Shown piece by piece: positions 3,875 to 57,852 of a stretch of 64,000 nucleotides of DNA. The position numbers were made by a program, and so were the translations under genes. The stretch lies in the NCBI GenBank assembly GCA_032430995.1, contig GCA_032430995.1_3952.1; one strand, written 5' to 3'. The notes under the pieces are model-generated. The model had not been told where the DNA came from, did no database searches, and saw only the letters and a program-made list of their open reading frames with translations. This stretch comes from a phage. How positions within the stretch are numbered: the first letter of the stretch is position 1; each line of letters starts with the position of its first letter.

Positions 3875-3890
3875 TAAGTAATTTCTTAAA

Positions 3891-3914
3891 AGGCTGCTTC
3901 GGCGGCCTTTTTTA
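3891..3914 (+). terminator. rho-independent terminator after rIIB
   Basis: GGCTGC-TTCG-GCGGCC hairpin followed by T6. Confidence 0.6.
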
Positions 3915-3974
3915 TTTGTATTTTGTGCAGAGTGCTGTATAATTGTTGTCACGATAAACTAAACAGGAGAACCA

Positions 3975-7523: not shown

Positions 7524-8309
7524 ATGGGTATTGTAAAAATAATTAATGGTGATATCTTTGCCGCATTTGATAAAGGTAAGTTTGACATCATCGGTCACGG
7601 TTGCAACTGTATGAACTTAATGGGTGCAGGTATCGCTGACAAGATTTCTAAACTTTACCCAAAAGCGTATGAGACCGATACAGAAGTTTATCTGTATGCA
7701 GGTGGTATAGGTCACAAACCCTGTGAAAATTTACTAGGTAATTTCTCTGTAGCACGTTTAAAACAAGGTCGTATAGCTAATCTTTACACTCAGCTTAAGA
7801 CTGGTAAAGATGCCCGATACAGTGCTTTAGAGTCATCTTTGAAACAGCTTAACAGATACTGTGAAGTTAACCAGTTGAAGAAAGTTGGTTTACCTATGAT
7901 TGGTGCAGGTATTGGTGGGCTGGACCCTCAAGCTGTCACAGTTATCATCAATCAGGTGATGAAGAGTGTAGATGTTTATCTGTATGTCTATGAAGGCGAG
8001 ATGTACCACAAGTTACGCTCAGGTTGGAAGAACTACTGTGAACCAGAATACTTTGCAGGTGTAGCAGTGTTCACGGATAACGCAGTTACCCTCTTCAGAC
8101 GAAGAAAAGGTAAGATACATCAAAGTAACCCTCCGGTTGAAAAGATGTCTCTAGGTAATGCTCTAGTTACCCACCTGTCGAAGAGCAATCACAGAATGGC
8201 TGTGACATTTGGTAGTGATGCAGAAGCTTATATCTATGCAAGAACTGATGAGGATATCGAGGCAATCTTCTCTTCACCAGAAGTTACCTTCTTAGACGCA
8301 AAGAACTAA
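7524..8309 (+). CDS. macro-domain protein (ADP-ribose binding/processing)
   Basis: N-terminus IINGDIFAAFDKGKFDIIGHGCNCMNLMGAGIADKI resembles the macro-domain Gly-rich core. Confidence 0.55.
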   Translation: MGIVKIINGDIFAAFDKGKFDIIGHGCNCMNLMGAGIADKISKLYPKAYETDTEVYLYAGGIGHKPCENLLGNFSVARLKQGRIANLYTQLKTGKDARYSALESSLKQLNRYCEVNQLKKVGLPMIGAGIGGLDPQAVTVIINQVMKSVDVYLYVYEGEMYHKLRSGWKNYCEPEYFAGVAVFTDNAVTLFRRRKGKIHQSNPPVEKMSLGNALVTHLSKSNHRMAVTFGSDAEAYIYARTDEDIEAIFSSPEVTFLDAKN

Positions 8310-8381
8310 GAAACTCTGTAGAATATTCACAATAGACTAAGCCTTTCTTATCTGGTAAATTTTTCAGGTAAGGAGGGCTTT

Positions 8382-8563
8382 TTCATTTCAGAATTGTGCA
8401 GGTAGAGTTCTGTAGAGAAATCTGTAGAGAGAATTTTGAACTCCAAAGAGAAAATTCATTTTCAAACTGTGCAGGTAATCTCCAAAGAGCTTTTTCATTT
8501 TCAAAACGTGCAGACCCCGCTCAGGTCGGGCAAGAAAAATCATTTTAGAATTGTGCAGGTAGG
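8382..8563. repeat. four direct copies of a 22-23 bp repeat (TTCATTTTCARAAYTGTGCAGGTA)
   Basis: copies at 8382-8404, 8456-8478, 8495-8516, 8540-8563; followed by C/CT-rich tract 8585-8618. Confidence 0.7.
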
Positions 8564-8737
8564 TTTTTATAGACAGCCAGCCCAACACCTCTCCCCCTCT
8601 TACTCCCCCTCTCCCCAAAAGTCAATAGAAAAATTTGTAGCGGATTGAAAAATAATTCTTGATTTGCGTTCTGTTTTGTGGTAGTCGTGTGCGCACGTTT
8701 CATTACAGTTTTTCCAAAAATATTTTTAAAATTTTTC

Positions 8738-8829
8738 TTGACTCTTTGAACGGGGTTATCTAGTATTTGCATCAACGGGGAGGGAATGACCTTCCCCACT
8801 AAATAAAGTCCTAAACTGGAGATTCAAAA
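8738..8829 (+). promoter_or_regulatory. early promoter + 5' stem-loop + conserved leader cassette (type A)
   Basis: TTGACT-17-TAGTAT, hairpin GGGGAGGGAATGACCTTCCCC, leader CCACTAAATAAAGTCCTAAACTGGAGATTCAAAAATG. Confidence 0.6.
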
Positions 8830-9210
8830 ATGGCATACCGTGCACCTAAATTCATCAACAAAGACAACTTTCGCAACGCACTGGAGAAGTCACTTGATGA
8901 GAATTTTAAAGGTAACGTTATTGTTGTTCACTCGTTCAATTTCAAGTATGATATTAACGGGAATAAAATCAACCATTACACGGCGACAATGCTAGATGGT
9001 ACTCTTTCAAGTGAAAAAGCCATTTTACATGCACTTGCTGGACGTGGTAAAAACCTGATAAGATGCGATAAGAGACGTTATCAGGGTGGCGCATATGGTT
9101 ACGATGATGCTGTTTATCATCTTGAAAATATGGGCTATCAAGTAGAAAAAGCTGGAGTGTCTCAAATAATCGGTAGTGATGGTTATGTAACAATCTTCAA
9201 AATTAACTGA
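8830..9210 (+). CDS. hypothetical protein (cassette gene)
   Basis: 126-aa ORF directly after conserved leader. Confidence 0.6.
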   Translation: MAYRAPKFINKDNFRNALEKSLDENFKGNVIVVHSFNFKYDINGNKINHYTATMLDGTLSSEKAILHALAGRGKNLIRCDKRRYQGGAYGYDDAVYHLENMGYQVEKAGVSQIIGSDGYVTIFKIN

Positions 9211-9298
9211 TAAAGTACTTTACAAGGGGCTTATAGTTCGATAAAGTAAGCCCCAGATAAAGAGCTTTACCACTAAATCCTAAATTGGAGATTCAAAA
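9211..9298 (+). promoter_or_regulatory. stem-loop + conserved leader cassette (type B)
   Basis: hairpin GGGGCTTAT...ATAAGCCCC then conserved leader ...CCTAAATTGGAGATTCAAAAATG. Confidence 0.5.
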
Positions 9299-9589
9299 AT
9301 GGCTACTATCAAAAACGTTGTAATTCCTGTAAAAACTCGTGATGACGCTCGCATCATGGCGAAAAAGTTAGGCGGGAAAGTGGTTGACAACGGAAAACAA
9401 TCTGCTGTAAGATGGGGTGTGAAGGCTGATAAACAGTTGAAGTTAAAAAATTCACCAATAAATCTTTTTACATGTGTAAACACTATCGGAAAGACAAATG
9501 TATACACGAAAAAGGCATATATTAGACGCGTAGCCTTAACATCTCCAATTCGTACAATGAGAGGTTATGCAAAGCTGAAAATTAGCTGA
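9299..9589 (+). CDS. hypothetical protein (cassette gene)
   Basis: 96-aa ORF after conserved leader. Confidence 0.55.
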   Translation: MATIKNVVIPVKTRDDARIMAKKLGGKVVDNGKQSAVRWGVKADKQLKLKNSPINLFTCVNTIGKTNVYTKKAYIRRVALTSPIRTMRGYAKLKIS

Positions 9590-9677
9590 TAAAGTACTTT
9601 ACAAGGGGCTTAAAAGTTGGTATCTTAAGCCCCAGATAAAGAGCTTTACCACTCAATCCTAAACTGGAGATTCAAAA
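9590..9677 (+). promoter_or_regulatory. stem-loop + conserved leader cassette (type B)
   Basis: hairpin GGGGCTTAAAAGTTGGTATCTTAAGCCCC (9-bp stem) plus conserved leader. Confidence 0.5.
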
Positions 9678-9974
9678 ATGAAATTATCAAATAAAGTTCG
9701 TGAAAATCTAAGCAAATTACTCAACAAAATTGATTTCATTGAAACATCAAGAAATAGCCATGATGTTATGGAATGGTTACACGGCAAAATAAAAGGTCGT
9801 CGTGTAGTGATTTGCTTATGGAATAGTTGCAGGGAGTATAAAAAACCTGTATTGCAAGTCAATATCTATGATGATACTTTTAAAAGCCCTGTAAAGTCTA
9901 AAAGTGATTTATTAGAATCCTATGAGATAACTGTAAATGGCAAAGTATCAAGTAAAGAGGAAACACCATGTTAA
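9678..9974 (+). CDS. hypothetical protein (cassette gene)
   Basis: 98-aa ORF after conserved leader. Confidence 0.55.
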   Translation: MKLSNKVRENLSKLLNKIDFIETSRNSHDVMEWLHGKIKGRRVVICLWNSCREYKKPVLQVNIYDDTFKSPVKSKSDLLESYEITVNGKVSSKEETPC

Positions 9975-10300
9975 TGACTGGTATCACTGCAATCATTGCC
10001 ATTTTCGCGCTATATAAGGCATATAAAGCCTATAATCTAGCAAATAAGGCAATCACACAGCAGGTTAGCAATAGCCTTGTAGAAAGCTTTCTAGGGCGTC
10101 TCAGTGATGAGCAAATAAAGCGGTTAGAAATGAGCTTCAGATTCAAAGCGAAAACCTATCAGATAAGTGACATCTTCAAGGATGATTTCCAGTTAGTCGA
10201 TGATTATAATTCTCTGATAAATGCTTTAAATATCAGTGACTTAAAAGACTACTACGCTGTAATTGTTCAAGAGTTGAGCAAACGAAAACAAAACTGTTGA
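9968..10300 (+). CDS. hypothetical protein with N-terminal hydrophobic segment
   Basis: 110-aa ORF overlapping upstream stop. Confidence 0.5.
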   Translation: MLMTGITAIIAIFALYKAYKAYNLANKAITQQVSNSLVESFLGRLSDEQIKRLEMSFRFKAKTYQISDIFKDDFQLVDDYNSLINALNISDLKDYYAVIVQELSKRKQNC

Positions 10301-10389
10301 CACTGATTTTTAGATAGATTAAATTACACATCAACGGGGAGGGAACAACCTTCCCACTAAATAAAGTCCTTAAACTAGGAGATTCTAAA
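10297..10389 (+). promoter_or_regulatory. early promoter + stem-loop + leader cassette (type A)
   Basis: TTGACA-17-TAAATT, hairpin GGGGAGGGAACAACCTTCCC, conserved leader. Confidence 0.6.
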
Positions 10390-10662
10390 ATGTATACTAC
10401 TAACAATGGCCTCACTTTGAACGTCACACTACGTCACTATGTAGATGGTGTCATGCACTTTGAAGATTTACAAGCTGAACAACATATCTTAGATTGGCAA
10501 GTCGCAGGACTCCAAAAAACTGCTACGGGATACGGTAAAAAGATTCCAACTAGTTGGAAAGTTCACTATGAAGGACGTTTGCGCAGAATTTATCAAGATG
10601 TGCAAAGCAATAGCGCATCGAGTTACATTATAGTAAAAGGTGAAAAACTGCATTTAGTATAA
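10390..10662 (+). CDS. hypothetical protein (cassette gene)
   Basis: 90-aa ORF after conserved leader. Confidence 0.55.
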   Translation: MYTTNNGLTLNVTLRHYVDGVMHFEDLQAEQHILDWQVAGLQKTATGYGKKIPTSWKVHYEGRLRRIYQDVQSNSASSYIIVKGEKLHLV

Positions 10663-10747
10663 AGTACTTTACATGGGGTTTAAAAGTTGGTATCTTAAGC
10701 CCCAGATAAAGAGCTTTACCCCTAAATCCTAAATTGGAGATTCAAAA
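10660..10747 (+). promoter_or_regulatory. stem-loop + conserved leader cassette (type B)
   Basis: near-identical copy of the 9590-9677 element. Confidence 0.5.
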
Positions 10748-11152
10748 ATGGCTATTAATAATCGTGAGTTATCAATCTTAAAAGCACGTTTAACCGTTAA
10801 TCGAATCAATGTTATCACGTCATCAGCACCAGACGAGACATTACACAACATTATCGGGAAGATTCAAGGTGTTATCTTAGACGTTGAGAATGTAAAAAAC
10901 TCATTAGCAGACGTTGCAGCAGGTGTTACACTAGACGGCGCACAATATGAAATGATTGACATGTTAGGCAAATCAAAGGTTATGAATAAAGAGTTAGACT
11001 TAAAAATGTTTCGATTTGCCGTGAAAGTATGGCTATCTGTCGAGTATGATGCTAATTTTGCAATTGCTGATTTCTTTGCCACTTGGTTGCAACGTAACTT
11101 AACAAATCATGATTTTCGTGATATCTGTGATGCAATTTACGCAGAACTTTAA
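10748..11152 (+). CDS. hypothetical protein (cassette gene)
   Basis: 134-aa ORF after conserved leader. Confidence 0.55.
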   Translation: MAINNRELSILKARLTVNRINVITSSAPDETLHNIIGKIQGVILDVENVKNSLADVAAGVTLDGAQYEMIDMLGKSKVMNKELDLKMFRFAVKVWLSVEYDANFAIADFFATWLQRNLTNHDFRDICDAIYAEL

Positions 11153-11160
11153 AAATTTTA

Positions 11161-11252
11161 TTGACACTGATTTTTAGATAGACTAAATTACACATCAACG
11201 GGGAGGGAACAACCTTCCCACTAAATAAAATCCTTAAACTAGGAGATTCAAA
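11161..11252 (+). promoter_or_regulatory. early promoter + stem-loop + leader cassette (type A)
   Basis: TTGACA-17-TAAATT, near-identical to the 10297 copy. Confidence 0.6.
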
Positions 11253-11795
11253 ATGAAATGCTTTCACGGTACTACTCAAGAAAACTTTATCAACCTGATT
11301 AATAACGGTGATAAACCATCAGGTGTATGGAATTGTTCGGATATGGACGGCAATTTTTACGTGTACCCAGAAAATAAACTCTATGGTGATGATGAGGAAG
11401 AGATAGCATCGGAAGGTATCCAGCAAGCTCTAGGAAATGCCACTATCACGGCAGCTTTTCAGATGAAAACTCAAAATATTGTTATCTTAGAACTTGACAT
11501 TCCAGAGGATGAGCTAAATGATGATTATTCTTGTGATAACATGTCAAATATAGCAAGCTTTACAGAGTACTTTGATGTAAATTGGATTAAAAAGGTCTAT
11601 ACAACAGAGTTCAACGCTATGTATTCACCTTTTTGTCTCCCTTCACTGGATAACCCAAATTTGAATTATCTTGATGAAACATTGGAGCTACTTGCTAAAA
11701 GTATCCAACAATCCGACAGTATTCAGGTTTTTTGTGACATCATGGATACACTGACAGAAAACATTGTAGAGAGTGATTTAAAGGTCTTTTTCTAA
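11253..11795 (+). CDS. highly acidic hypothetical protein
   Basis: 180 aa; by eye about 34 Asp+Glu versus about 8 Lys and no Arg. Confidence 0.55.
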   Translation: MKCFHGTTQENFINLINNGDKPSGVWNCSDMDGNFYVYPENKLYGDDEEEIASEGIQQALGNATITAAFQMKTQNIVILELDIPEDELNDDYSCDNMSNIASFTEYFDVNWIKKVYTTEFNAMYSPFCLPSLDNPNLNYLDETLELLAKSIQQSDSIQVFCDIMDTLTENIVESDLKVFF

Positions 11796-11861
11796 AAACC
11801 TATACATTCACCTTATAAACACTGATTAACCCCTTACAGGGGCTTTTAGAGGGCTTAAATC

Positions 11862-12095
11862 ATGCTTACAACCATTTATCTCATCCTTTCTATCTGTAAC
11901 GGTCATTCATGTGACTTTAAAGGGCTTGAAGAGTTTACAGGAAGTAAAGAAAATGCTATTCAGGTTTGCCAGATAGCAAGACAAGACTATCCCGCCAGTG
12001 ACGACATTCAATGCTACTTTAAGACAGAAGATGAAGACGGCATCTATTTTGACAGCGTTGACGGTCAATATGAAATTATCATTGAAAAAGACTAG
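11862..12095 (+). CDS. hypothetical small protein
   Basis: 77-aa ORF. Confidence 0.4.
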   Translation: MLTTIYLILSICNGHSCDFKGLEEFTGSKENAIQVCQIARQDYPASDDIQCYFKTEDEDGIYFDSVDGQYEIIIEKD

Positions 12096-12186
12096 ACAAG
12101 CCTGATAAAAGTCTGTAAATTACACATCAACGGGGAGGGAATGACCTTCCCCACTAAATAAAGTCCTTAAACTAGGAGATTCAAAA
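12093..12186 (+). promoter_or_regulatory. early promoter + stem-loop + leader cassette (type A)
   Basis: TAGACA-17-TAAATT, hairpin GGGGAGGGAATGACCTTCCCC, conserved leader. Confidence 0.55.
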
Positions 12187-12528
12187 ATGGCTTATGTAAC
12201 CGTAATTACCGATAAAGCTGGCTCATCTTGGTCAACTCAGGTTAGTGATAAGATGTCGCCTATGCAGTGCCTAAAATACTTTGAGCAGTGGAACAAAGGC
12301 GAGGATGTAAGCCCCTTTCAAGTGATGCAAATCATCCATACAGATAACGAAGGGAATAAAACGACCTTGAACAGTGAATACTACGCAAGCCGTTTTGAAA
12401 CGAGAAGTAAAACAATGAAGCTTTTACGTGAATCCGGCTATTCTCATATTGCCGCGCTAATCTGGGATGACCTGCTAAAAAGCCAGCGTATCAGCTATGT
12501 AAAACCTGAAAAAATATTCATCAGTTAA
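12187..12528 (+). CDS. hypothetical protein (cassette gene)
   Basis: 113-aa ORF after conserved leader. Confidence 0.55.
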   Translation: MAYVTVITDKAGSSWSTQVSDKMSPMQCLKYFEQWNKGEDVSPFQVMQIIHTDNEGNKTTLNSEYYASRFETRSKTMKLLRESGYSHIAALIWDDLLKSQRISYVKPEKIFIS

Positions 12529-12647
12529 TCAATAACTTACAAAAAACTTTTAAAAAAGTGTTGACAATACCCCTTGACATTGGTAACTTTGTTCGAGGGG
12601 GTTTATCTAAAAGGGATTCACTTAAAAGATTCTTTATAGATAAACTT

Positions 12648-12728
12648 AAAAAATTGCTTGCAATCATCTTCCAAAAACTTTATAGTTTATCTCAAGCAAT
12701 AATGCTTTCCTAAACTGGAGATTCAAAA
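12648..12728 (+). promoter_or_regulatory. sigma70-like promoter plus conserved leader
   Basis: TTGCAA-17-TATAGT then ...CCTAAACTGGAGATTCAAAAATG. Confidence 0.55.
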
Positions 12729-13259
12729 ATGAACAAGTTCAAAGCTATCAACTACATTCGCTCAAATAGTGTCATGTCTAAGCCTGTTAAGGATACCTAC
12801 GAATTTCGTTGCAATGGTGAACACTTTGCTACCATCACCAAATCAAACAACGGGGCTTATTATATCCATCGTCGTAATGTTTCTACGGTTGTAGTTTCTA
12901 ACTTTATGCAAGCTGTAGCGGAACTCCTCCCGCTCTTCTTAGAAAAGTATGCCGTACAGTGTGAAAGTGTTCGTGAATGCACTAAAACAGTGTTAAACGG
13001 TTATCGTATGGCTTACGAGCGCTCTTTAAAGAATCTCAATAAATACTACAAAGCACCGGAAGGCACTTCATCCACAGCCTACGGGGTAGGGGGCTTCAAT
13101 GTCAGCCTTTACGAAGTGGAAGAAATCGAGCTTTATGACCATCGCCCAAATGGTTACGCTAAGACACTGGGAGAGGGGTTAATGCTGAATATCAAGAACT
13201 TAGAAAAAACTTTAAGAGAAATTGAAAAAGATATTGACGAGACAATCAAAAATCTGTAA
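12729..13259 (+). CDS. hypothetical protein (cassette gene)
   Basis: 176-aa ORF after conserved leader. Confidence 0.55.
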   Translation: MNKFKAINYIRSNSVMSKPVKDTYEFRCNGEHFATITKSNNGAYYIHRRNVSTVVVSNFMQAVAELLPLFLEKYAVQCESVRECTKTVLNGYRMAYERSLKNLNKYYKAPEGTSSTAYGVGGFNVSLYEVEEIELYDHRPNGYAKTLGEGLMLNIKNLEKTLREIEKDIDETIKNL

Positions 13260-13327
13260 ATTGTCAATCAACGGGGGGGGGGGGTAACCTGCCCCACTAA
13301 ACAAAATCCTAAACTGGAGTTATCAAG
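13234..13327 (+). promoter_or_regulatory. early promoter + stem-loop (with G12 tract) + leader cassette
   Basis: TTGACG-17-TAAATT; hairpin position carries a 12-G run at 13273-13284. Confidence 0.5.
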
Positions 13328-13591
13328 ATGGAAAACGTAGAATTAACCACACTATTGCAGATTGCAACTGACAAAGAAGACGTAGCGTTGTTTCACCGTA
13401 TCGAAAGTGATTTGTTCAATGGTGAAATCATTAAAGAATCTTACGAAGTTGTCGGATTCAAAGATGGTAAAGCATTTGGCTTTTTTGACCTCGACAAAAG
13501 CAAAGCGGTTACAATGTACGATGTTCTATCTTGTGAAATTCTGACAAAATACAACGAAAAAAGGCTTGCAACCTACGCCAATATGCAGTAA
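13328..13591 (+). CDS. hypothetical protein (cassette gene)
   Basis: 87-aa ORF. Confidence 0.5.
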   Translation: MENVELTTLLQIATDKEDVALFHRIESDLFNGEIIKESYEVVGFKDGKAFGFFDLDKSKAVTMYDVLSCEILTKYNEKRLATYANMQ

Positions 13592-13658
13592 ATTACTAAT
13601 CAACGGGGAGGGAATGACCTTCCCACTAAACAAAGTCCTAAACTGGAGAATCTAAATT
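13566..13658 (+). promoter_or_regulatory. early promoter + stem-loop + leader cassette (type A)
   Basis: TTGCAA-17-TAAATT, hairpin GGGGAGGGAATGACCTTCCC, conserved leader. Confidence 0.55.
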
Positions 13659-13907
13659 ATGTCAACTATCCGCGTAACTGTTAATGCTTATGGCTGCCAT
13701 CAACTTGATGCAAAATTCGATATCGGTGGAACAGATAACACCTTTGACCTTATCAAAATGCTGATTCAGCAGGTGATACCAGATTATAACCCTACTGATG
13801 ACTTCTGGAAAGATGCCGTAAAAGAAGCCATAAACGAGGAATCTCACTACCATTATTGGGGTGACTTGATTATCTCTCTGTACTACAGCAAACAAGGTTA
13901 CAACTAA
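13659..13907 (+). CDS. hypothetical protein (cassette gene)
   Basis: 82-aa ORF. Confidence 0.5.
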   Translation: MSTIRVTVNAYGCHQLDAKFDIGGTDNTFDLIKMLIQQVIPDYNPTDDFWKDAVKEAINEESHYHYWGDLIISLYYSKQGYN

Positions 13908-13917
13908 TCGACGCAGC

Positions 13918-13970
13918 GGGGCTAAATAGCCCCAGATACCTGAAAAGCTCCTTCTCATAGGGGCTTTTTT
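13918..13970 (+). terminator. terminator region closing the plus-strand cassette block
   Basis: GGGGCTAAATAGCCCC hairpin, then GGGGC followed by T6. Confidence 0.5.
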
Positions 13971-13974
13971 ACGT

Positions 13975-15540
13975 CTATAAAGAGACTCTATACAGTCCCT
14001 TTCCTTTCCTTCCTAGAATCTATCCCACTAATTCGATAGAGACTATCTCATACCTTAAAAAGCAATAACTCTATAGTCTACTCTATAACCTCTTATCAAA
14101 TTAACTTAAATAAAAGCCCATAACCCGAAAGGGAAGGGCAACCACTAAAACGCTCTATAAAGCTCTATAACAACCTTATCAACCTAACTTAAGCAATCAT
14201 ATTAACCCACTCTAAAAAGCCCTTTATAGAGCTTCCTATAGCCTTAAAAGAATCTTATAAGGGTGTAGCCTTATAGGCTGGCTAGTATCTTGTGAATAAC
14301 TAAACAATCCCTTGATAGTCTCTAAAAAGTATGTTATAGGGGCTGTTAAGTTACTTTGAAGTTACGTGATAGATAGCTTAAAAGTTACGTAAATGCTAGC
14401 CCCCTTAACATTTTCTTAACAATTTCTTAACAATCCCTACATAGTTATGCTTTTAAGGCACTTGTTAGCAACTTGTTAGCCCCTTGTTAAATCTCTGTTA
14501 AGACCACGTAAAAGCCTTGTAAGAGTCTTTAGCATAGCCTTTAAAGCCTCTGTAAAGCCCTATAAAGAGGTGTCTGTATAGTTGGGGTGTAATTACTAGG
14601 AAGAGACTTAAAAGAGCTTACAAGGAGCTATAGAGAGCTTTTAAGAGGGCTATTTAGAGAATCACTAAGAGGGAAAGGGAACGATAAGAAAAGAGATAGT
14701 GACCATGTTAATAGCTTGTTAAAAAGATTAAACACTTGTTAGGAACTTGTTAATTATCCCTACAAAATAACTCTTTAAAATTAACTTGTTAGCTCTCGTT
14801 AGTTATCTGTTAAGATTCTATAAAGACTATTCAGCACTTGTTAGAAAACTGTTACAGCCTTGTTAGTTCTGTTAAGAATCTGTTAAGACTTTTGAAGGGT
14901 TGTTAAGAGCTTGAGAGAGTTGTTAAGAGATTGTTAAGGATATTTTAAAATTTTGCAAAGTACTTGTAAGGGAGCTGTTAAGGGCTACCAAGCAGATATA
15001 CATCTTCTACAGATATTTTTCAGTTCCTTCAAAGACCCTAAAAAATGACTTGATAGTCCTATTTTATAAAAATTTTAAAATTCTGAATAATTACCTAGAC
15101 AGTCTTTTAAAAATACAGGTAGAAACAGGCTTATAAGATACCTTGTTAGTACCGTGTTAGACCTTGTGAGATAAGGTCTGTAAAGATATTCCTGTTAAGT
15201 TTGTTAAAACAGTCTATATAGAGGCTTAGTATTTCCTAGTGAACACCTATAGAGGGTAACATAGCTAACCTAGAGATTAAGAGGTGTATAGGAGCTTCTA
15301 AGAGGGTGTAGAGAGATGGTTAAGGTGATTGTATAGGTTGTTAAGAAGGCTTGTTAGAAGAGTGTTTAGAGGGGCTATACAGAGGGGCTATTAAGACCAC
15401 TAGATAGATACTAAGATACTATATAGTACTATATAACTATATAGAGAGTAAGATTAAGAAGGTTGTTAAGAAGGGTAGATATTTTATTCACATATGATGG
15501 TGACCCAGCGGTTGGGACAACCGATAAATTTTATAAAAAT
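13975..15540. repeat. ORF-free region dense in degenerate short repeats
   Basis: no ORF of 60 aa or more in any frame; more than 20 copies of CTTGTTAG / TTGTTAAG / CTGTTAAG and CTATAAAG / CTATAG words; AT-rich tandem TACTATATA copies near 15410-15445. Confidence 0.7.
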
Positions 15541-15565
15541 TAAAAAGCCCCCGATTAAGGAGGCT
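15541..15565 (-). terminator. minus-strand terminator after ORF 15577..16200
   Basis: A5 then GCCCCC-GATTAA-GGAGGC hairpin on plus strand (hairpin plus T-run on minus). Confidence 0.5.
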
Positions 15566-15576
15566 CTTAAGATATT

Positions 15577-57522: not shown

Positions 57523-57852
57523 TTAATCTGCCAGCCTTAAATTAAAATTAACACCAAATTTTTCGCATACTTCCAACATATACTCAAGCGAGACATTTCC
57601 AGTGAGGTGGATTATGTTGGATACACGAGCCTGAGAGATACCACAAATTTTAGCAACTTGCTCTTGAGAAAGACCTCTGGATTTAATCTCTCTCTTAAAA
57701 CGATGTGCAACGAAATCTCTCATTTCGTCTACATCCATTGGACAAATATAACTCTCCATTTCAGCCTCTCTGTCAGCCTCCCAATCATCTTGTGGAGCAT
57801 AAGGGTCAAAAACCTCATTCATCTTTCTTCTTCCGTTTGCGTGAAGTGTCAA
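57523..57852 (-). CDS. putative HTH DNA-binding protein
   Basis: QEQVAKICGISQARVSNI resembles a helix-turn-helix. Confidence 0.4.
   Translation of the reverse strand: MTLHANGRRKMNEVFDPYAPQDDWEADREAEMESYICPMDVDEMRDFVAHRFKREIKSRGLSQEQVAKICGISQARVSNIIHLTGNVSLEYMLEVCEKFGVNFNLRLAD

What the first reader, a model, noticed from the sequence alone, without database searches (positions are those of the whole stretch)
8382..8620. Four direct 22-bp repeats plus a C-rich tract at the entry to the cassette block
TTCATTTTCARAAYTGTGCAGGTA occurs four times (8382-8404, 8456-8478, 8495-8516, 8540-8563) with a tandem TCTGTAGAGA pair between copies, followed by CTCTCCCCCTCTTACTCCCCCTCTCCCC (8588-8616). No convincing ORF covers it. 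Looks like a protein-binding site array or a promoter cluster.
Basis: seen in the sequence. Interest (0 to 1): 0.45.

Follow-up and report, generated by a model that had tools for sequence, protein, structure and literature searches.

The report
Conserved four-site repeat array in Felix O1-like phages
Four copies of a two-part DNA motif sit in one non-coding gap of a Felix O1-type phage genome; they occur nowhere else in it and persist in distant relatives, which points to a docking array for an unidentified DNA-binding protein, although the phage grows normally in the laboratory when the array is disrupted.

Summary
The window is a Felixounavirus genome. In the 520-bp gap between a macro-domain 'phosphatase' gene and the first small early gene lie four same-strand copies of TCATTT-N7-GTGCA, at 8383, 8456, 8495 and 8540. 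A weight matrix scores them 33-37 bits; the next best site in the ~88-kb genome scores 16. The array follows the macro gene in Felixounavirus, Mooglevirus, Kolesnikvirus and one unclassified metagenomic phage, where the macro protein is only 33-37% identical. Selection acts on the nucleotides. The two half-sites are nearly invariant, the N7 and spacers drift, repeat spacing breaks every reading frame, and would-be synonymous positions never vary. I found no sigma-70 promoter inside, no Rfam match and no conserved RNA fold. Best reading: a multi-site landing pad for a sequence-specific DNA-binding protein at the junction between a terminator and the early promoter region. An iteron-like replication origin is the main rival. 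Published PhageMaP data for phage Bas63 show that barcode insertions in the array are as fit as knock-outs of non-essential genes, so it is accessory or redundant. The C-rich tract is a perfect mirror repeat, but about a third of the Felixounavirus sequences examined carry a different module there. The binding protein and the function remain untested.

The parts
8339..8380 (+). Intrinsic terminator of the rIIA-rIIB...macro-domain transcription unit. Its T-tract runs directly into repeat copy 1.
   Evidence: The terminator scan gives a 17-pair stem followed by TTTCATTT. wV8 annotates a Rho-independent terminator at the homologous place. The 3' arm AGGTAAGGAGGGCTTTTT is invariant, while the 5' arm varies but keeps pairing.
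8383..8401 (+). Repeat copy 1, TCATTTCAGAATTGTGCAG (bipartite core TCATTT-N7-GTGCA).
   Evidence: PWM score 37.5 bits.
8409..8430 (+). Tandem TCTGTAGAGA pair with a 12-nt period, in the long spacer between copies 1 and 2.
   Evidence: (family D7). It is only loosely conserved in relatives (TCTGGACAGA, TCTATAAAGA). Related CTRTAVAG motifs are enriched in the 13.9-15.6 kb non-coding region.
8456..8474 (+). Repeat copy 2, TCATTTTCAAACTGTGCAG, preceded by the conserved CTCCAAAGAG and an A-run.
   Evidence: PWM score 36.1 bits. This copy is naturally absent in two full-length relatives, L012 and L046.
8495..8513 (+). Repeat copy 3, TCATTTTCAAAACGTGCAG, preceded by CTCCAAAGAG and a T-run.
   Evidence: PWM score 33.4 bits.
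8540..8558 (+). Repeat copy 4, TCATTTTAGAATTGTGCAG.
   Evidence: PWM score 33.8 bits.
8563..8616 (+). Exchangeable ~55-bp module. In this phage it is the C-rich allele, with the perfect homopyrimidine mirror repeat CCTCTCCCCCTC-TTA-CTCCCCCTCTCC at 8588-8614. The complementary strand is G-rich with a G4-like pattern.
   Evidence: mirror repeat, 20 C in 30 nt, G-tract pattern; of 33 relatives' sequences, about a third, including Bas63, carry a different G-rich/mixed module between the same flanks. Mooglevirus also has the C-rich form, and Kolesnikvirus a shorter one.
8617..8657 (+). The most conserved block of the gap, AAAAGTCAA.AGAAAAATTTGTAG.G.A.T.AAAAATAATTC. It leads into a -35-like TTGATT at 8659-8664 with a poor -10, TAGTCG, at 8682-8687.
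   Evidence: 80% of its columns are invariant in the Felix+Moogle alignment. The -10 candidates in relatives all end in G (TAKNNG), and the promoter scan did not call the site.
8738..8766 (+). Sigma-70-type early promoter, TTGACT-17-TAGTAT, with an upstream A/T tract. It is followed by a 5'-UTR hairpin (8777-8797) and the cassette ribosome site CTGGAG...ATG (ATG at 8830).
   Evidence: It is conserved in relatives. The same 5'-UTR and ribosome-site module recurs before each small gene of the cassette block.

Best explanation
The four repeats are a cis-acting DNA element: an array of four independent, asymmetric, bipartite recognition sites. Each has an A- or T-run, then TCATTT, then 7 A/T-rich variable bases, then GTGCA(G/T). 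They would bind a sequence-specific DNA-binding protein, either a monomer with two reading heads or a protein that reads one specific half-site plus DNA shape.

The array starts on the T-tract of the terminator that ends the rII-macro operon. It ends about 100-120 bp upstream of the conserved promoter region that opens the block of small early genes. The most likely role is accessory transcription control at this junction. For example, a nucleoprotein roadblock or insulator could reinforce termination and shield the early promoters. Alternatively, it could be a remote operator through which a phage protein modulates the early block after infection is under way.

Shown here: reality of the repeats, uniqueness in the genome, conservation pattern, and the non-coding, non-promoter, non-structured-RNA nature. 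Shown by others' data: dispensability in laboratory hosts. Inferred: protein binding, the identity of the binder (the phage's Xre-type HTH protein at 57526-57822 is only a candidate), and the transcriptional role.
For: 1. Four sites score 33-37 bits against 16 bits for the next best in the whole genome, and all are on one strand.
2. In an alignment of the whole gap, made without reference to the motif, the 11 core positions per copy are 97% conserved. The internal N7 is 76% conserved and the spacers 81%. Across 82 distinct units from four lineages, positions 1-6 and 14-18 are near-invariant.
3. The array follows the macro-domain gene in Felixounavirus (spacing 73/39/45), Mooglevirus (75/41/45), Kolesnikvirus (37/37/39) and the metagenomic lineage L029. 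In the last two the macro protein is only 33% and 37% identical. In Kolesnikvirus, BLAST aligned only the repeat segment of the gap.
4. The run before TCATTT is either AAAA or TTTT, about equally often. These are equivalent as minor-groove shape in duplex DNA but not in RNA.
5. It is not coding. Spacings of 37, 41, 43, 73, 75 and 77 break the frame. The third positions of the would-be CAT and GTG codons are invariant in 82/82 units. Annotators chose different strands.
6. No promoter lies inside, there is no Rfam match, and there is no consensus fold or covariation.
7. The position between a terminator and conserved promoter elements is kept in Felixounavirus and Mooglevirus; Kolesnikvirus also has a terminator before the array and a promoter-like site after it.
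8. The phage encodes a small HTH_3 protein, called a transcriptional regulator in Bas63.
Against: - No binding protein is identified, and nothing was tested biochemically.
- Xre-type HTH proteins usually bind palindromes, and these sites are asymmetric.
- The array does not overlap any -35 or -10. Its distance to the downstream -35-like hexamer varies from 111 to 120 bp, and the helical phasing of the four sites differs between genera. This argues against a stereospecific activator or repressor complex.
- Only the first promoter region of the cassette block has such an array.
- PhageMaP insertions inside the array give fitness +0.24 to +0.93 in three host backgrounds, like non-essential genes. 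No phenotype therefore supports any function. Single insertions may leave three sites intact.
- Spacer sequences are also fairly conserved within each genus (CTCCAAAGAG in Felix/Moogle, CTGGCAA in Kolesnik). One 19-bp site does not explain that.
Confidence: 0.45

Rival explanations
1. Iteron-type origin of replication. The four direct repeats bind an initiator, phage-encoded or host. This opens neighbouring A/T-rich DNA, possibly helped by transcription from the adjacent early promoters, as at T4 and T7 origins.
For: - There are four direct, same-orientation ~19-bp repeats, unique in the genome. From general knowledge, this is the format of lambda ori and F ori2.
- A 77% A+T stretch lies at 8709-8768, in the top 0.3% of the window.
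- In L029 the array abuts an A/T-rich stretch of TTAACA hexamers in 11-bp phase.
- Copy number is conserved across genera.
- The Kolesnikvirus and L029 version, TGTGCATAG, matches 8 of 9 positions of the DnaA-box complement. That comparison is from memory and by eye.
Against: - Spacing is 37-45 and 73-75 bp, not about 2 helical turns, and the phase is not conserved between genera.
- The array itself has average A+T (61.5%), and equally A/T-rich tracts occur at other promoters.
- No initiator-like gene lies nearby; Pfam and PHROGs give nothing for the 9 small early genes downstream of the array, and the upstream neighbour is a macro-domain protein.
- The replication genes are about 25-30 kb away on the circular map.
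- Insertions in the array cost no fitness, whereas polymerase and primase knock-outs score -0.8 to -2.3. This is not decisive if origins are redundant.
Confidence: 0.2
2. RNA-level element. Read-through transcripts of the terminator carry four repeated motifs, plus the C-rich tract in this allele. These would act as an anti-ribosome-site or sponge RNA, as RNase or Hfq sites, or, for the C-rich part, as a Rho-loading (rut) site that backs up the intrinsic terminator.
For: - The repeat resembles the reverse complement of the cassette ribosome-site/start region: TCATTTTTGAATCTCCAG against TCATTTTCAAACTGTGCAG.
- Felix/Moogle spacers contain CUCCA, complementary to the UGGAG Shine-Dalgarno sequence.
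- The C-rich tract has 27 C against 5 G over 61 nt and no G in 28 nt, a composition ideal for Rho.
- All copies are on the sense strand of the flanking genes.
Against: - No promoter was found to drive it, and it lies behind a strong terminator.
- CUCC is absent from the Kolesnikvirus and L029 spacers, while TCATTT and GTGCA persist.
- A-runs and T-runs are interchangeable before the core.
- No consensus structure or covariation was found, fold z-scores were -2.1 and +1.4, and there was no Rfam hit.
- The C-rich tract is replaced by a G-rich module in many relatives.
Confidence: 0.1
3. Non-functional scar. The units would be decayed duplications of a 'terminator tail + promoter-upstream' junction, of the kind that flanks every small early gene. 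Recombination and gene conversion would keep them similar, rather than selection for a function.
For: - Copy 1 is fused to a terminator T-tract.
- The best off-array PWM hit (16 bits, 3907-3933) also sits right after the rIIB terminator and just upstream of an extended -10, TGTATAAT.
- The neighbouring block is built of repeated promoter/hairpin/ribosome-site modules.
- Spacers are homogenised within genera.
- One copy is missing in L012 and L046.
- Insertions show no fitness effect.
Against: - The core is near-invariant while the interior drifts, which is not what uniform gene conversion gives.
- The same 11 core bases and the copy number (4, or 5 in L029) survive divergence that took the adjacent protein to 33-37% identity.
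- The units contain no promoter remnants.
Confidence: 0.1
4. Promoter cluster. Each repeat would be a promoter for host RNA polymerase or for a phage-modified polymerase.
For: The units are A/T-rich and resemble an UP element by eye. Copies 1, 2 and 4 of this phage are followed by TAnnnT-like hexamers: TAGAGT, TAATCT and TAGGTT.
Against: - The scan finds no sigma-70-type site in 8382-8620 on either strand.
- The TAnnnT hexamers are not conserved in relatives.
- Conservation peaks at TCATTT and GTGCA, not at -35/-10 positions.
- A phage-specific promoter class should recur before other genes, but the motif is found nowhere else.
Confidence: 0.05
5. A small repeat-containing protein is encoded. 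One candidate is the + strand frame reading ...KIHFQTVQV...ELFHFQNVQ...KNHFRIVQV. Another is the - strand frames annotated in Bas63 (g96/g97) and Sf14.
For: - Stop-free frames of 70-80 codons cover copies 2-4 in several phages. In this phage the spacings 39 and 45 are multiples of 3.
- Several GenBank records annotate ORFs here.
Against: - wV8 (39/43), Mooglevirus (41), Kolesnikvirus (37/37) and L029 (38) break the frame.
- There is no conserved start codon or ribosome site.
- Annotated ORFs are on different strands in different records.
- Positions that would be synonymous (third base of CAT and of GTG) are invariant in 82/82 units, whereas neighbouring first and second positions vary.
- Insertions carrying stop codons in all frames are neutral.
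Confidence: 0.03

Closest known systems
Iterons of lambda ori and of theta-replicating plasmids (for example F ori2, which has four 19-bp direct repeats). From general knowledge.
   Same: Four direct, same-orientation repeats of about 19 bp, unique in the replicon and asymmetric, as expected for a protein with two DNA-reading domains.
   Different: Spacing is 37-75 bp rather than about 20-22 bp, and the phase is not conserved. No adjacent initiator gene or clear unwinding element was found. The array tolerates insertions without fitness cost. Membership is not established.
Multi-site transcription-switch regions of lytic phages, for example the four p4-binding sites between the early and late promoters of phi29. 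From general knowledge.
   Same: Several spaced sites for one small phage DNA-binding protein, in a non-coding control region next to early promoters. The sites are A/T-rich with short specific ends.
   Different: The phi29 sites are inverted repeats that overlap the promoters they control. Here the sites are direct and asymmetric, and lie more than 100 bp upstream of the nearest promoter-like hexamers.
PeSL (promoter-early stem-loop) regulatory cassettes that flank hyperplastic-region genes of T4-type phages. From general knowledge.
   Same: The neighbouring block (9.2-13.7 kb) is built the same way: small early genes, each preceded by a repeated promoter + hairpin + ribosome-site module. The array sits at the entry to that block.
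   Different: The four repeats themselves contain no promoter and no hairpin, and they flank no genes. They are a distinct element.
Homopurine-homopyrimidine mirror repeats (H-DNA/triplex-forming tracts) and Rho-loading rut sites. This comparison applies to the C-rich tract only.
   Same: A perfect 12-nt-arm pyrimidine mirror repeat with a 3-nt centre, and an extreme C>G bias on the sense strand.
   Different: No structural or termination assay exists. The tract is replaced by an unrelated module in many close relatives, so it is not required for whatever the repeats do.

Membership tests
Iteron-type replication origin | Three or more direct repeats of 17-22 bp in one orientation, unique in the replicon | tested here: met
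   Four 19-nt cores on the + strand, with none elsewhere in about 88 kb.
Iteron-type replication origin | Repeats contiguous or regularly spaced, in conserved helical phase | tested here: not met
   Spacing is 73/39/45 in Felixounavirus, 75/41/45 in Mooglevirus, 37/37/39 in Kolesnikvirus and 36/148/38 in L029. The phases differ between genera.
Iteron-type replication origin | Adjacent A/T-rich unwinding element | tested here: inconclusive
   A 77% A+T window at 8709 is in the top 0.3%, but it coincides with a promoter UP-like tract and is not the richest in the genome. L029 has an A/T-rich TTAACA array next to the repeats.
Iteron-type replication origin | Cognate initiator gene overlapping or next to the repeats | tested here: not met
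   The upstream gene is a macro-domain protein. Nine downstream small genes have no Pfam family, and their PHROGs are of unknown function.
Iteron-type replication origin | Needed in cis for replication | tested here: inconclusive
   Published PhageMaP scores for insertions in bas63_0096, which spans copies 1-4, are +0.24 to +0.93, like non-essential genes. Single insertions and redundant origins cannot be excluded.
Sigma-70 promoter (cluster) | -35 and -10 hexamers 16-18 bp apart within each unit | tested here: not met
   No site was called in 8382-8620 on either strand.
Sigma-70 promoter (cluster) | Conservation concentrated on the hexamers; a -10 kept in relatives | tested here: not met
   The conserved parts are TCATTT and GTGCA. 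The bases after GTGCAG vary between relatives.
Phage-specific promoter class | The same motif recurs upstream of several genes | tested here: not met
   The motif is confined to this locus.
Structured non-coding RNA | Match to a described family | tested here: not met
   Rfam search at E<=10 gave only chance-level hits far below the gathering scores.
Structured non-coding RNA | Conserved secondary structure with compensatory changes | tested here: not met
   RNAalifold gave -1.9 kcal/mol, 5 trivial pairs and no compensatory change. Single-sequence z-scores were -2.1 (dominated by the terminator) and +1.4.
Protein-coding gene | Reading frame kept in relatives, with variation mainly at synonymous sites | tested here: not met
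   Spacings break the frame in wV8, Mooglevirus, Kolesnikvirus and L029. The would-be synonymous positions 4 and 16 are invariant in 82/82 units.
Rho utilisation (rut) site (C-rich tract only) | C-rich, G-poor tract in untranslated RNA | tested here: met
   19 C and 0 G in 28 nt; 27 C and 5 G in 61 nt. It is the most C-rich 30-mer of the window. Whether the tract is actually transcribed was not tested: it lies behind an intrinsic terminator and no promoter was found to drive it.
Rho utilisation (rut) site (C-rich tract only) | Retained in relatives; causes Rho-dependent termination | tested here: inconclusive
   It is present in Mooglevirus and, shorter, in Kolesnikvirus. About a third of the Felixounavirus sequences carry a G-rich module instead. 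Termination cannot be tested with these tools.
H-DNA-forming mirror repeat (C-rich tract only) | Perfect homopyrimidine mirror symmetry with arms of at least 10 nt | tested here: met
   Arms of 12 nt with a 3-nt centre at 8588-8614. Whether a triplex forms is not testable here.
T4-type PeSL regulatory cassette | The unit contains an early promoter and a stem-loop and flanks a gene | tested here: not met
   The repeats have neither feature. The downstream cassette junctions do have them.

The most novel reading that the evidence does not exclude
The four-site array and the 1.2-1.7-kb non-coding region packed with YTGTTAR hexamers in 11-bp phase (window 13.9-15.6 kb) may be two halves of one ancestral control locus. 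They are contiguous in the divergent phage L029. In Felixounavirus and Kolesnikvirus they bracket the hyperplastic block of small early genes. Proteins bound at the two ends could pair, forming a loop or insulated domain, or an origin- or centromere-like complex. That would govern the whole early block or mark where replication starts. Such a bracketed gene-cassette domain has not been described for phages.
Probability: 0.12. Interest if true: 0.65.

Novelty: new member of a known kind. Interest (0 to 1): 0.4.

Why it matters
Felix O1-type phages are classic typing and biocontrol phages. One of them, Bas63, is now a genetic model. The published genome paper states that how their transcription is timed is not known, and I found no study locating a replication origin.

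A genome-unique, deeply conserved four-site array at the boundary of the early gene block is a concrete handle on that question. It gives a short DNA bait for finding the protein that reads it. It also gives a defined target for deletion, and a marker that locates the entry to the variable early-gene block in new genomes.

The result also corrects annotation. The small 'hypothetical proteins' called over this region in many records, on either strand, are most likely not genes.

Tried and rejected
- **Rfam scan of 8000-9200:** nothing meaningful.
- **RNA folding of both strands and an alignment fold:** no structure beyond the terminator.
- **Promoter and terminator scan:** no promoter in the array.
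- **Coding test in six frames across seven phages:** rejected.
- **Genome-termini or packaging site:** rejected. The experimentally mapped 608-bp terminal repeats of UAB_Phi87 lie about 22 kb away.
- **Scan of 185,579 bacterial and archaeal species genomes for a pair of sites:** only unrelated tandem repeats in non-enteric taxa. There is no host-chromosome or prophage counterpart.
- **Metagenome scan with the GTGCAT variant:** only unrelated exact tandem repeats. One look-alike, L107, is a CT-microsatellite region.
- **BLAST of the L029 locus against GenBank phages:** no match.
- **Attempt to extend L029 downstream:** failed because the locus lies at the contig end.
- **Pfam and PHROGs on the neighbouring genes:** no DNA-binding or initiator domain.
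- **Literature:** the Felix O1 and wV8 genome papers do not mention these repeats. I found no transcript-start or origin study for the group.
- **Host-factor consensus sequences, compared by eye from memory:** CRP, Fur, IHF, Fis, DnaA, MarA/SoxS/Rob, PhoB, LexA, NtrC, sigma-54, sigma-E, sigma-32, the UP element and the EcoKI-type bipartite site. None fits the invariant positions in all lineages. These comparisons are leads, not tests.
- **Anti-ribosome-site RNA idea:** weakened because the CUCC element is lineage-specific.
- **A/T-richness as evidence for an unwinding element:** not distinctive.
Full report
**What the window is.** BLAST of 8200-8900 against GenBank phages finds 289 records, almost all Felix O1-like phages of Escherichia, Salmonella, Shigella, Citrobacter and Erwinia. 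The best matches are 96-97% identical. The window is collinear with Escherichia phage wV8, which is opened at rIIA. The finding lies in a 520-bp gap (8310-8829). Upstream is a 261-aa macro-domain protein gene at 7524-8309 (Pfam Macro; PHROG 'phosphatase'). Downstream is the first of a series of small + strand genes of unknown function (8830-9210 onward).

**Checking the observation.** The four repeats are present as described. Their common part is a 19-nt unit starting at 8383, 8456, 8495 and 8540. Reduced to what is shared, it is the bipartite pattern TCATTT-N7-GTGCA.
- The pattern occurs four times in the 64-kb window, all here and all on the + strand. Shuffles give 0.055 expected, with a maximum of 1.
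- It does not occur in the 43 kb of the wV8 genome that the window does not cover.
- A weight matrix built from relatives scores the four sites 33-37 bits. The next best site in the genome scores 16 bits.
- The TCTGTAGAGA pair (8409-8430) and the C-rich tract (8589-8616) are also real.
- The C-rich tract has 19 C and no G in 28 nt, and is the most C-rich 30-mer in the window. It is a perfect mirror repeat, CCTCTCCCCCTC-TTA-CTCCCCCTCTCC.

**Anatomy of the gap.**
- An intrinsic terminator lies at 8339-8380 (annotated at the same place in wV8). Its T-tract is the start of copy 1.
- After copy 4 comes a ~55-bp module, C-rich in this phage.
- Next is a 41-bp block (8617-8657) that is the best conserved stretch of the whole gap. 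It leads into a -35-like TTGATT (8659) with a poor -10 (TAGTCG).
- Then comes a good sigma-70 promoter, TTGACT-17-TAGTAT (8738-8766), followed by a 5' hairpin and the ribosome site of the first small gene.

**Relatives.** The repeat segment matches 293 GenBank phage records. A pattern scan of IMG/VR returned 43 loci.
- The array follows the macro-domain gene everywhere it is found. Copy number and spacing are conserved: 73/39/45 in nearly all Felixounavirus, 75/41/45 in Mooglevirus (Sf14) and 37/37/39 in Kolesnikvirus (phiEa21-4).
- An unclassified 88-kb IMG/VR phage (L029) has a five-copy version.
- The macro proteins of phiEa21-4 and L029 are only 33% and 37% identical to the one here. Yet the 11 core bases are intact in each copy.
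- In Kolesnikvirus, BLAST could align only the repeat segment of the gap.
- Two full-length relatives (L012, L046) lack copy 2.

**Where selection acts.** I aligned the whole gap from eight Felixounavirus and Mooglevirus phages without reference to the motif.
- The 44 core columns are 97% conserved. The 11 columns affected by the natural loss of copy 2 account for nearly all the rest.
- The internal N7 columns are 76% conserved and the spacers 81%.
- Over 82 distinct units from four lineages, positions 1-6 and 14-18 carry 1.7-2.0 bits. The interior stays A/T-rich but variable. The run before the core is AAAA or TTTT about equally often.

The A/T-run alternation is neutral for duplex DNA shape but not for RNA. 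The pattern is that of an asymmetric two-part protein recognition site.

**Not a gene.** Stop-free frames cross the array on both strands. Annotators have called ORFs on the + strand in wV8 and on the - strand in Bas63, Sf14 and phi63_307.
- In one + frame the repeat would read (K/E)xxHFQxVQ.
- Spacings of 37, 41, 43, 73, 75 and 77 break the frame in other phages.
- No start codon or ribosome site is conserved.
- The third positions of the would-be His (CAT) and Val (GTG) codons are invariant in 82 of 82 units, while first and second positions of neighbouring codons vary. That is the opposite of protein-level selection.

**Not a promoter cluster and not a structured RNA.**
- The promoter scan finds nothing in 8382-8620 on either strand.
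- TAnnnT-like hexamers after copies 1, 2 and 4 are not kept in relatives.
- The motif precedes no other gene.
- Rfam gives nothing.
- Folding is unremarkable apart from the terminator.
- An alignment fold finds 5 trivial pairs and no compensatory change.
- The repeat resembles the reverse complement of the cassette ribosome-site region, and Felix/Moogle spacers carry CUCCA. That element is missing in Kolesnikvirus and L029, so I rank an antisense-RNA role low.

**Experimental data from the literature.** PhageMaP (bioRxiv 10.1101/2024.10.10.617714) inserted barcodes with stop codons in all frames at Cas9 cut sites in every annotated gene of Bas63, a Felixounavirus.
- Bas63 annotates two - strand ORFs over this gap. 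bas63_0096 (64142-64297) runs from inside copy 1 to the start of copy 4.
- Its insertion mutants score +0.65/+0.62/+0.24 on host S17. They score +0.93/+0.83/+0.65 in a second host sheet whose name was not visible in the part read, and +0.57/+0.77/+0.71 in a TerY-P defence background.
- These values match the neighbouring non-essential phosphatase gene. DNA polymerase and primase/helicase score -0.8 to -2.3.
- bas63_0097, which covers the rest of copy 4 and the conserved block, has no data.

The array is therefore dispensable, or redundant, for growth in the laboratory. The exact insertion points are not available to me, and a single insertion leaves most sites intact.

**The C-rich tract.** Among 33 relatives' sequences, the ~55 bp between copy 4 and the conserved AAAAGTCAA block comes in two forms. 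One is the C-rich form seen here, also in Mooglevirus and, shorter, in Kolesnikvirus. The other is an unrelated G-rich/mixed form, found in about a third of the Felixounavirus sequences, including Bas63. The tract is therefore an exchangeable module, not a fixed partner of the repeats. On composition it would make an excellent Rho-loading site on read-through RNA. As DNA it is a textbook H-DNA motif, with G4-like G-tracts on the other strand. None of this can be tested here.

**What it most likely is.** I take the repeats to be four docking sites for one sequence-specific DNA-binding protein. They are placed between the terminator of the rII-macro operon and the promoter region of the early block, and have an accessory role in transcription control at that junction (confidence 0.45).
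- I am fairly sure of the general part of this claim, that the array is a selected DNA-level cis-element.
- I am much less sure of the specific transcriptional role.
- A candidate reader is the phage's 99-aa Xre-type HTH protein, at window 57526-57822 on the - strand. Its Bas63 homologue is moderately important in PhageMaP and triggers the DRT7 defence system. Nothing links it to these sites.

The main rival is an iteron-like origin (0.2). The format fits. The spacing, the lack of a neighbouring initiator gene, the lack of a distinctive unwinding element and the neutral insertions do not. Lesser rivals are an RNA-level role (0.1), a homogenised but functionless scar of terminator/promoter junctions (0.1), a promoter cluster (0.05) and a small protein (0.03).

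**Is it known?** The Felix O1 genome paper lists direct repeats of at least 24 bp elsewhere. It states that temporal control of transcription is unknown, and it does not mention these repeats. The wV8 record annotates nine repeat families in the cassette block, but none here. Searches for origin or transcript-start work on this group found nothing relevant. I therefore class the array as an undescribed member of a familiar kind, a cis-acting protein-site array. Interest is moderate.

**Side observation.** The cassette block ends in a 1.67-kb stretch without ORFs (13908-15576). It holds 26 YTGTTAR hexamers, many exactly 11 bp apart, plus CTATAAAG-type motifs. phiEa21-4 has the same kind of region at the same relative place. 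In L029, TTAACA hexamers in 11-bp phase lie directly next to the four-site array. The two non-coding regions may therefore belong together.

Noticed in passing
window 13908-15576: A 1.67-kb stretch with no ORF of 55 aa or more lies between the end of the + strand cassette block and the 3' end of a - strand gene. It holds 26 YTGTTAR hexamers, 24 of them on the + strand. Many are exactly 11 bp apart, for example 14462/14473/14484/14495. It also holds many CTATAAAG/CTGTAAAG motifs and polypyrimidine/polypurine runs. phiEa21-4 has a homologous kind of region (record 16.47-17.66 kb), and L029 has TTAACA in 11-bp phase right next to the four-repeat array.
   Followed up: partly
window 9208-13661: Each small early gene is preceded by one of a few repeated modules: a promoter, a hairpin and a near-identical ribosome-site region, TCCTAAAYTGGAGATTCAAAAATG. 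wV8 annotates these as DR_1 to DR_9. They look like the promoter-stem-loop cassettes that shuffle genes in T4-type phages.
   Followed up: partly
window 3890-3945: Right after the rIIB terminator there is a single weak look-alike of the repeat, CTTTTTTATTTGTATTTTGTGCAGAGT (16 bits). It lies 7 nt upstream of an extended -10, TGTATAAT. It is at the noise ceiling of the matrix, but it has the same 'terminator T-tract + motif' layout as copy 1.
   Followed up: partly
window 8563-8616 and relatives (L091 5315-5375): The ~55-bp module after copy 4 is dimorphic among close relatives. One form is a C-rich mirror-repeat allele. The other is a G-rich/mixed allele that contains an extra GTGCAGGT half-site. 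Both sit between identical flanks.
   Followed up: partly
window 8617-8687: A 41-bp block is 80% invariant between genera and ends in a -35-like TTGAYN. The matching -10 candidates all read TAKNNG, with G instead of the usual final T. CTGTTT in the spacer is also invariant. This may not be an ordinary sigma-70 promoter.
   Followed up: no
window 57526-57822 (- strand): A 99-aa Xre/Cro-type HTH protein (Pfam HTH_3, E 5e-10), 100% identical to wV8 gp91. Its Bas63 homologue, Bas63-035, is reported as the trigger of the DRT7 defence system and scores about -1.2 to -1.4 in PhageMaP.
   Followed up: partly
window 13268-13295: The 5'-UTR hairpin module before the gene at 13328 contains a run of about 12 G (caacggggggggggggtaacctgcccc), where the other copies read GGGGAGGG. 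This could be a slippage-prone homopolymer or a sequencing artefact.
   Followed up: no
L022 (IMGVR_UViG_3300045988_009833), about 60 nt after copy 4: The contig sequence switches to CTGTCTCTTATACACATCTCCGAGCCCACGAGAC. From memory I recognise this as a Nextera adapter, so this public contig would end in an assembly artefact.
   Followed up: no
GenBank records of relatives (wV8 gene 13; bas63_0096/0097; Sf14 FDI99_gp039; phi63_307 LINGLNFE_00143): Small 'hypothetical protein' genes are annotated over the repeat array on different strands in different records. On the evidence here they are most likely spurious.
   Followed up: yes
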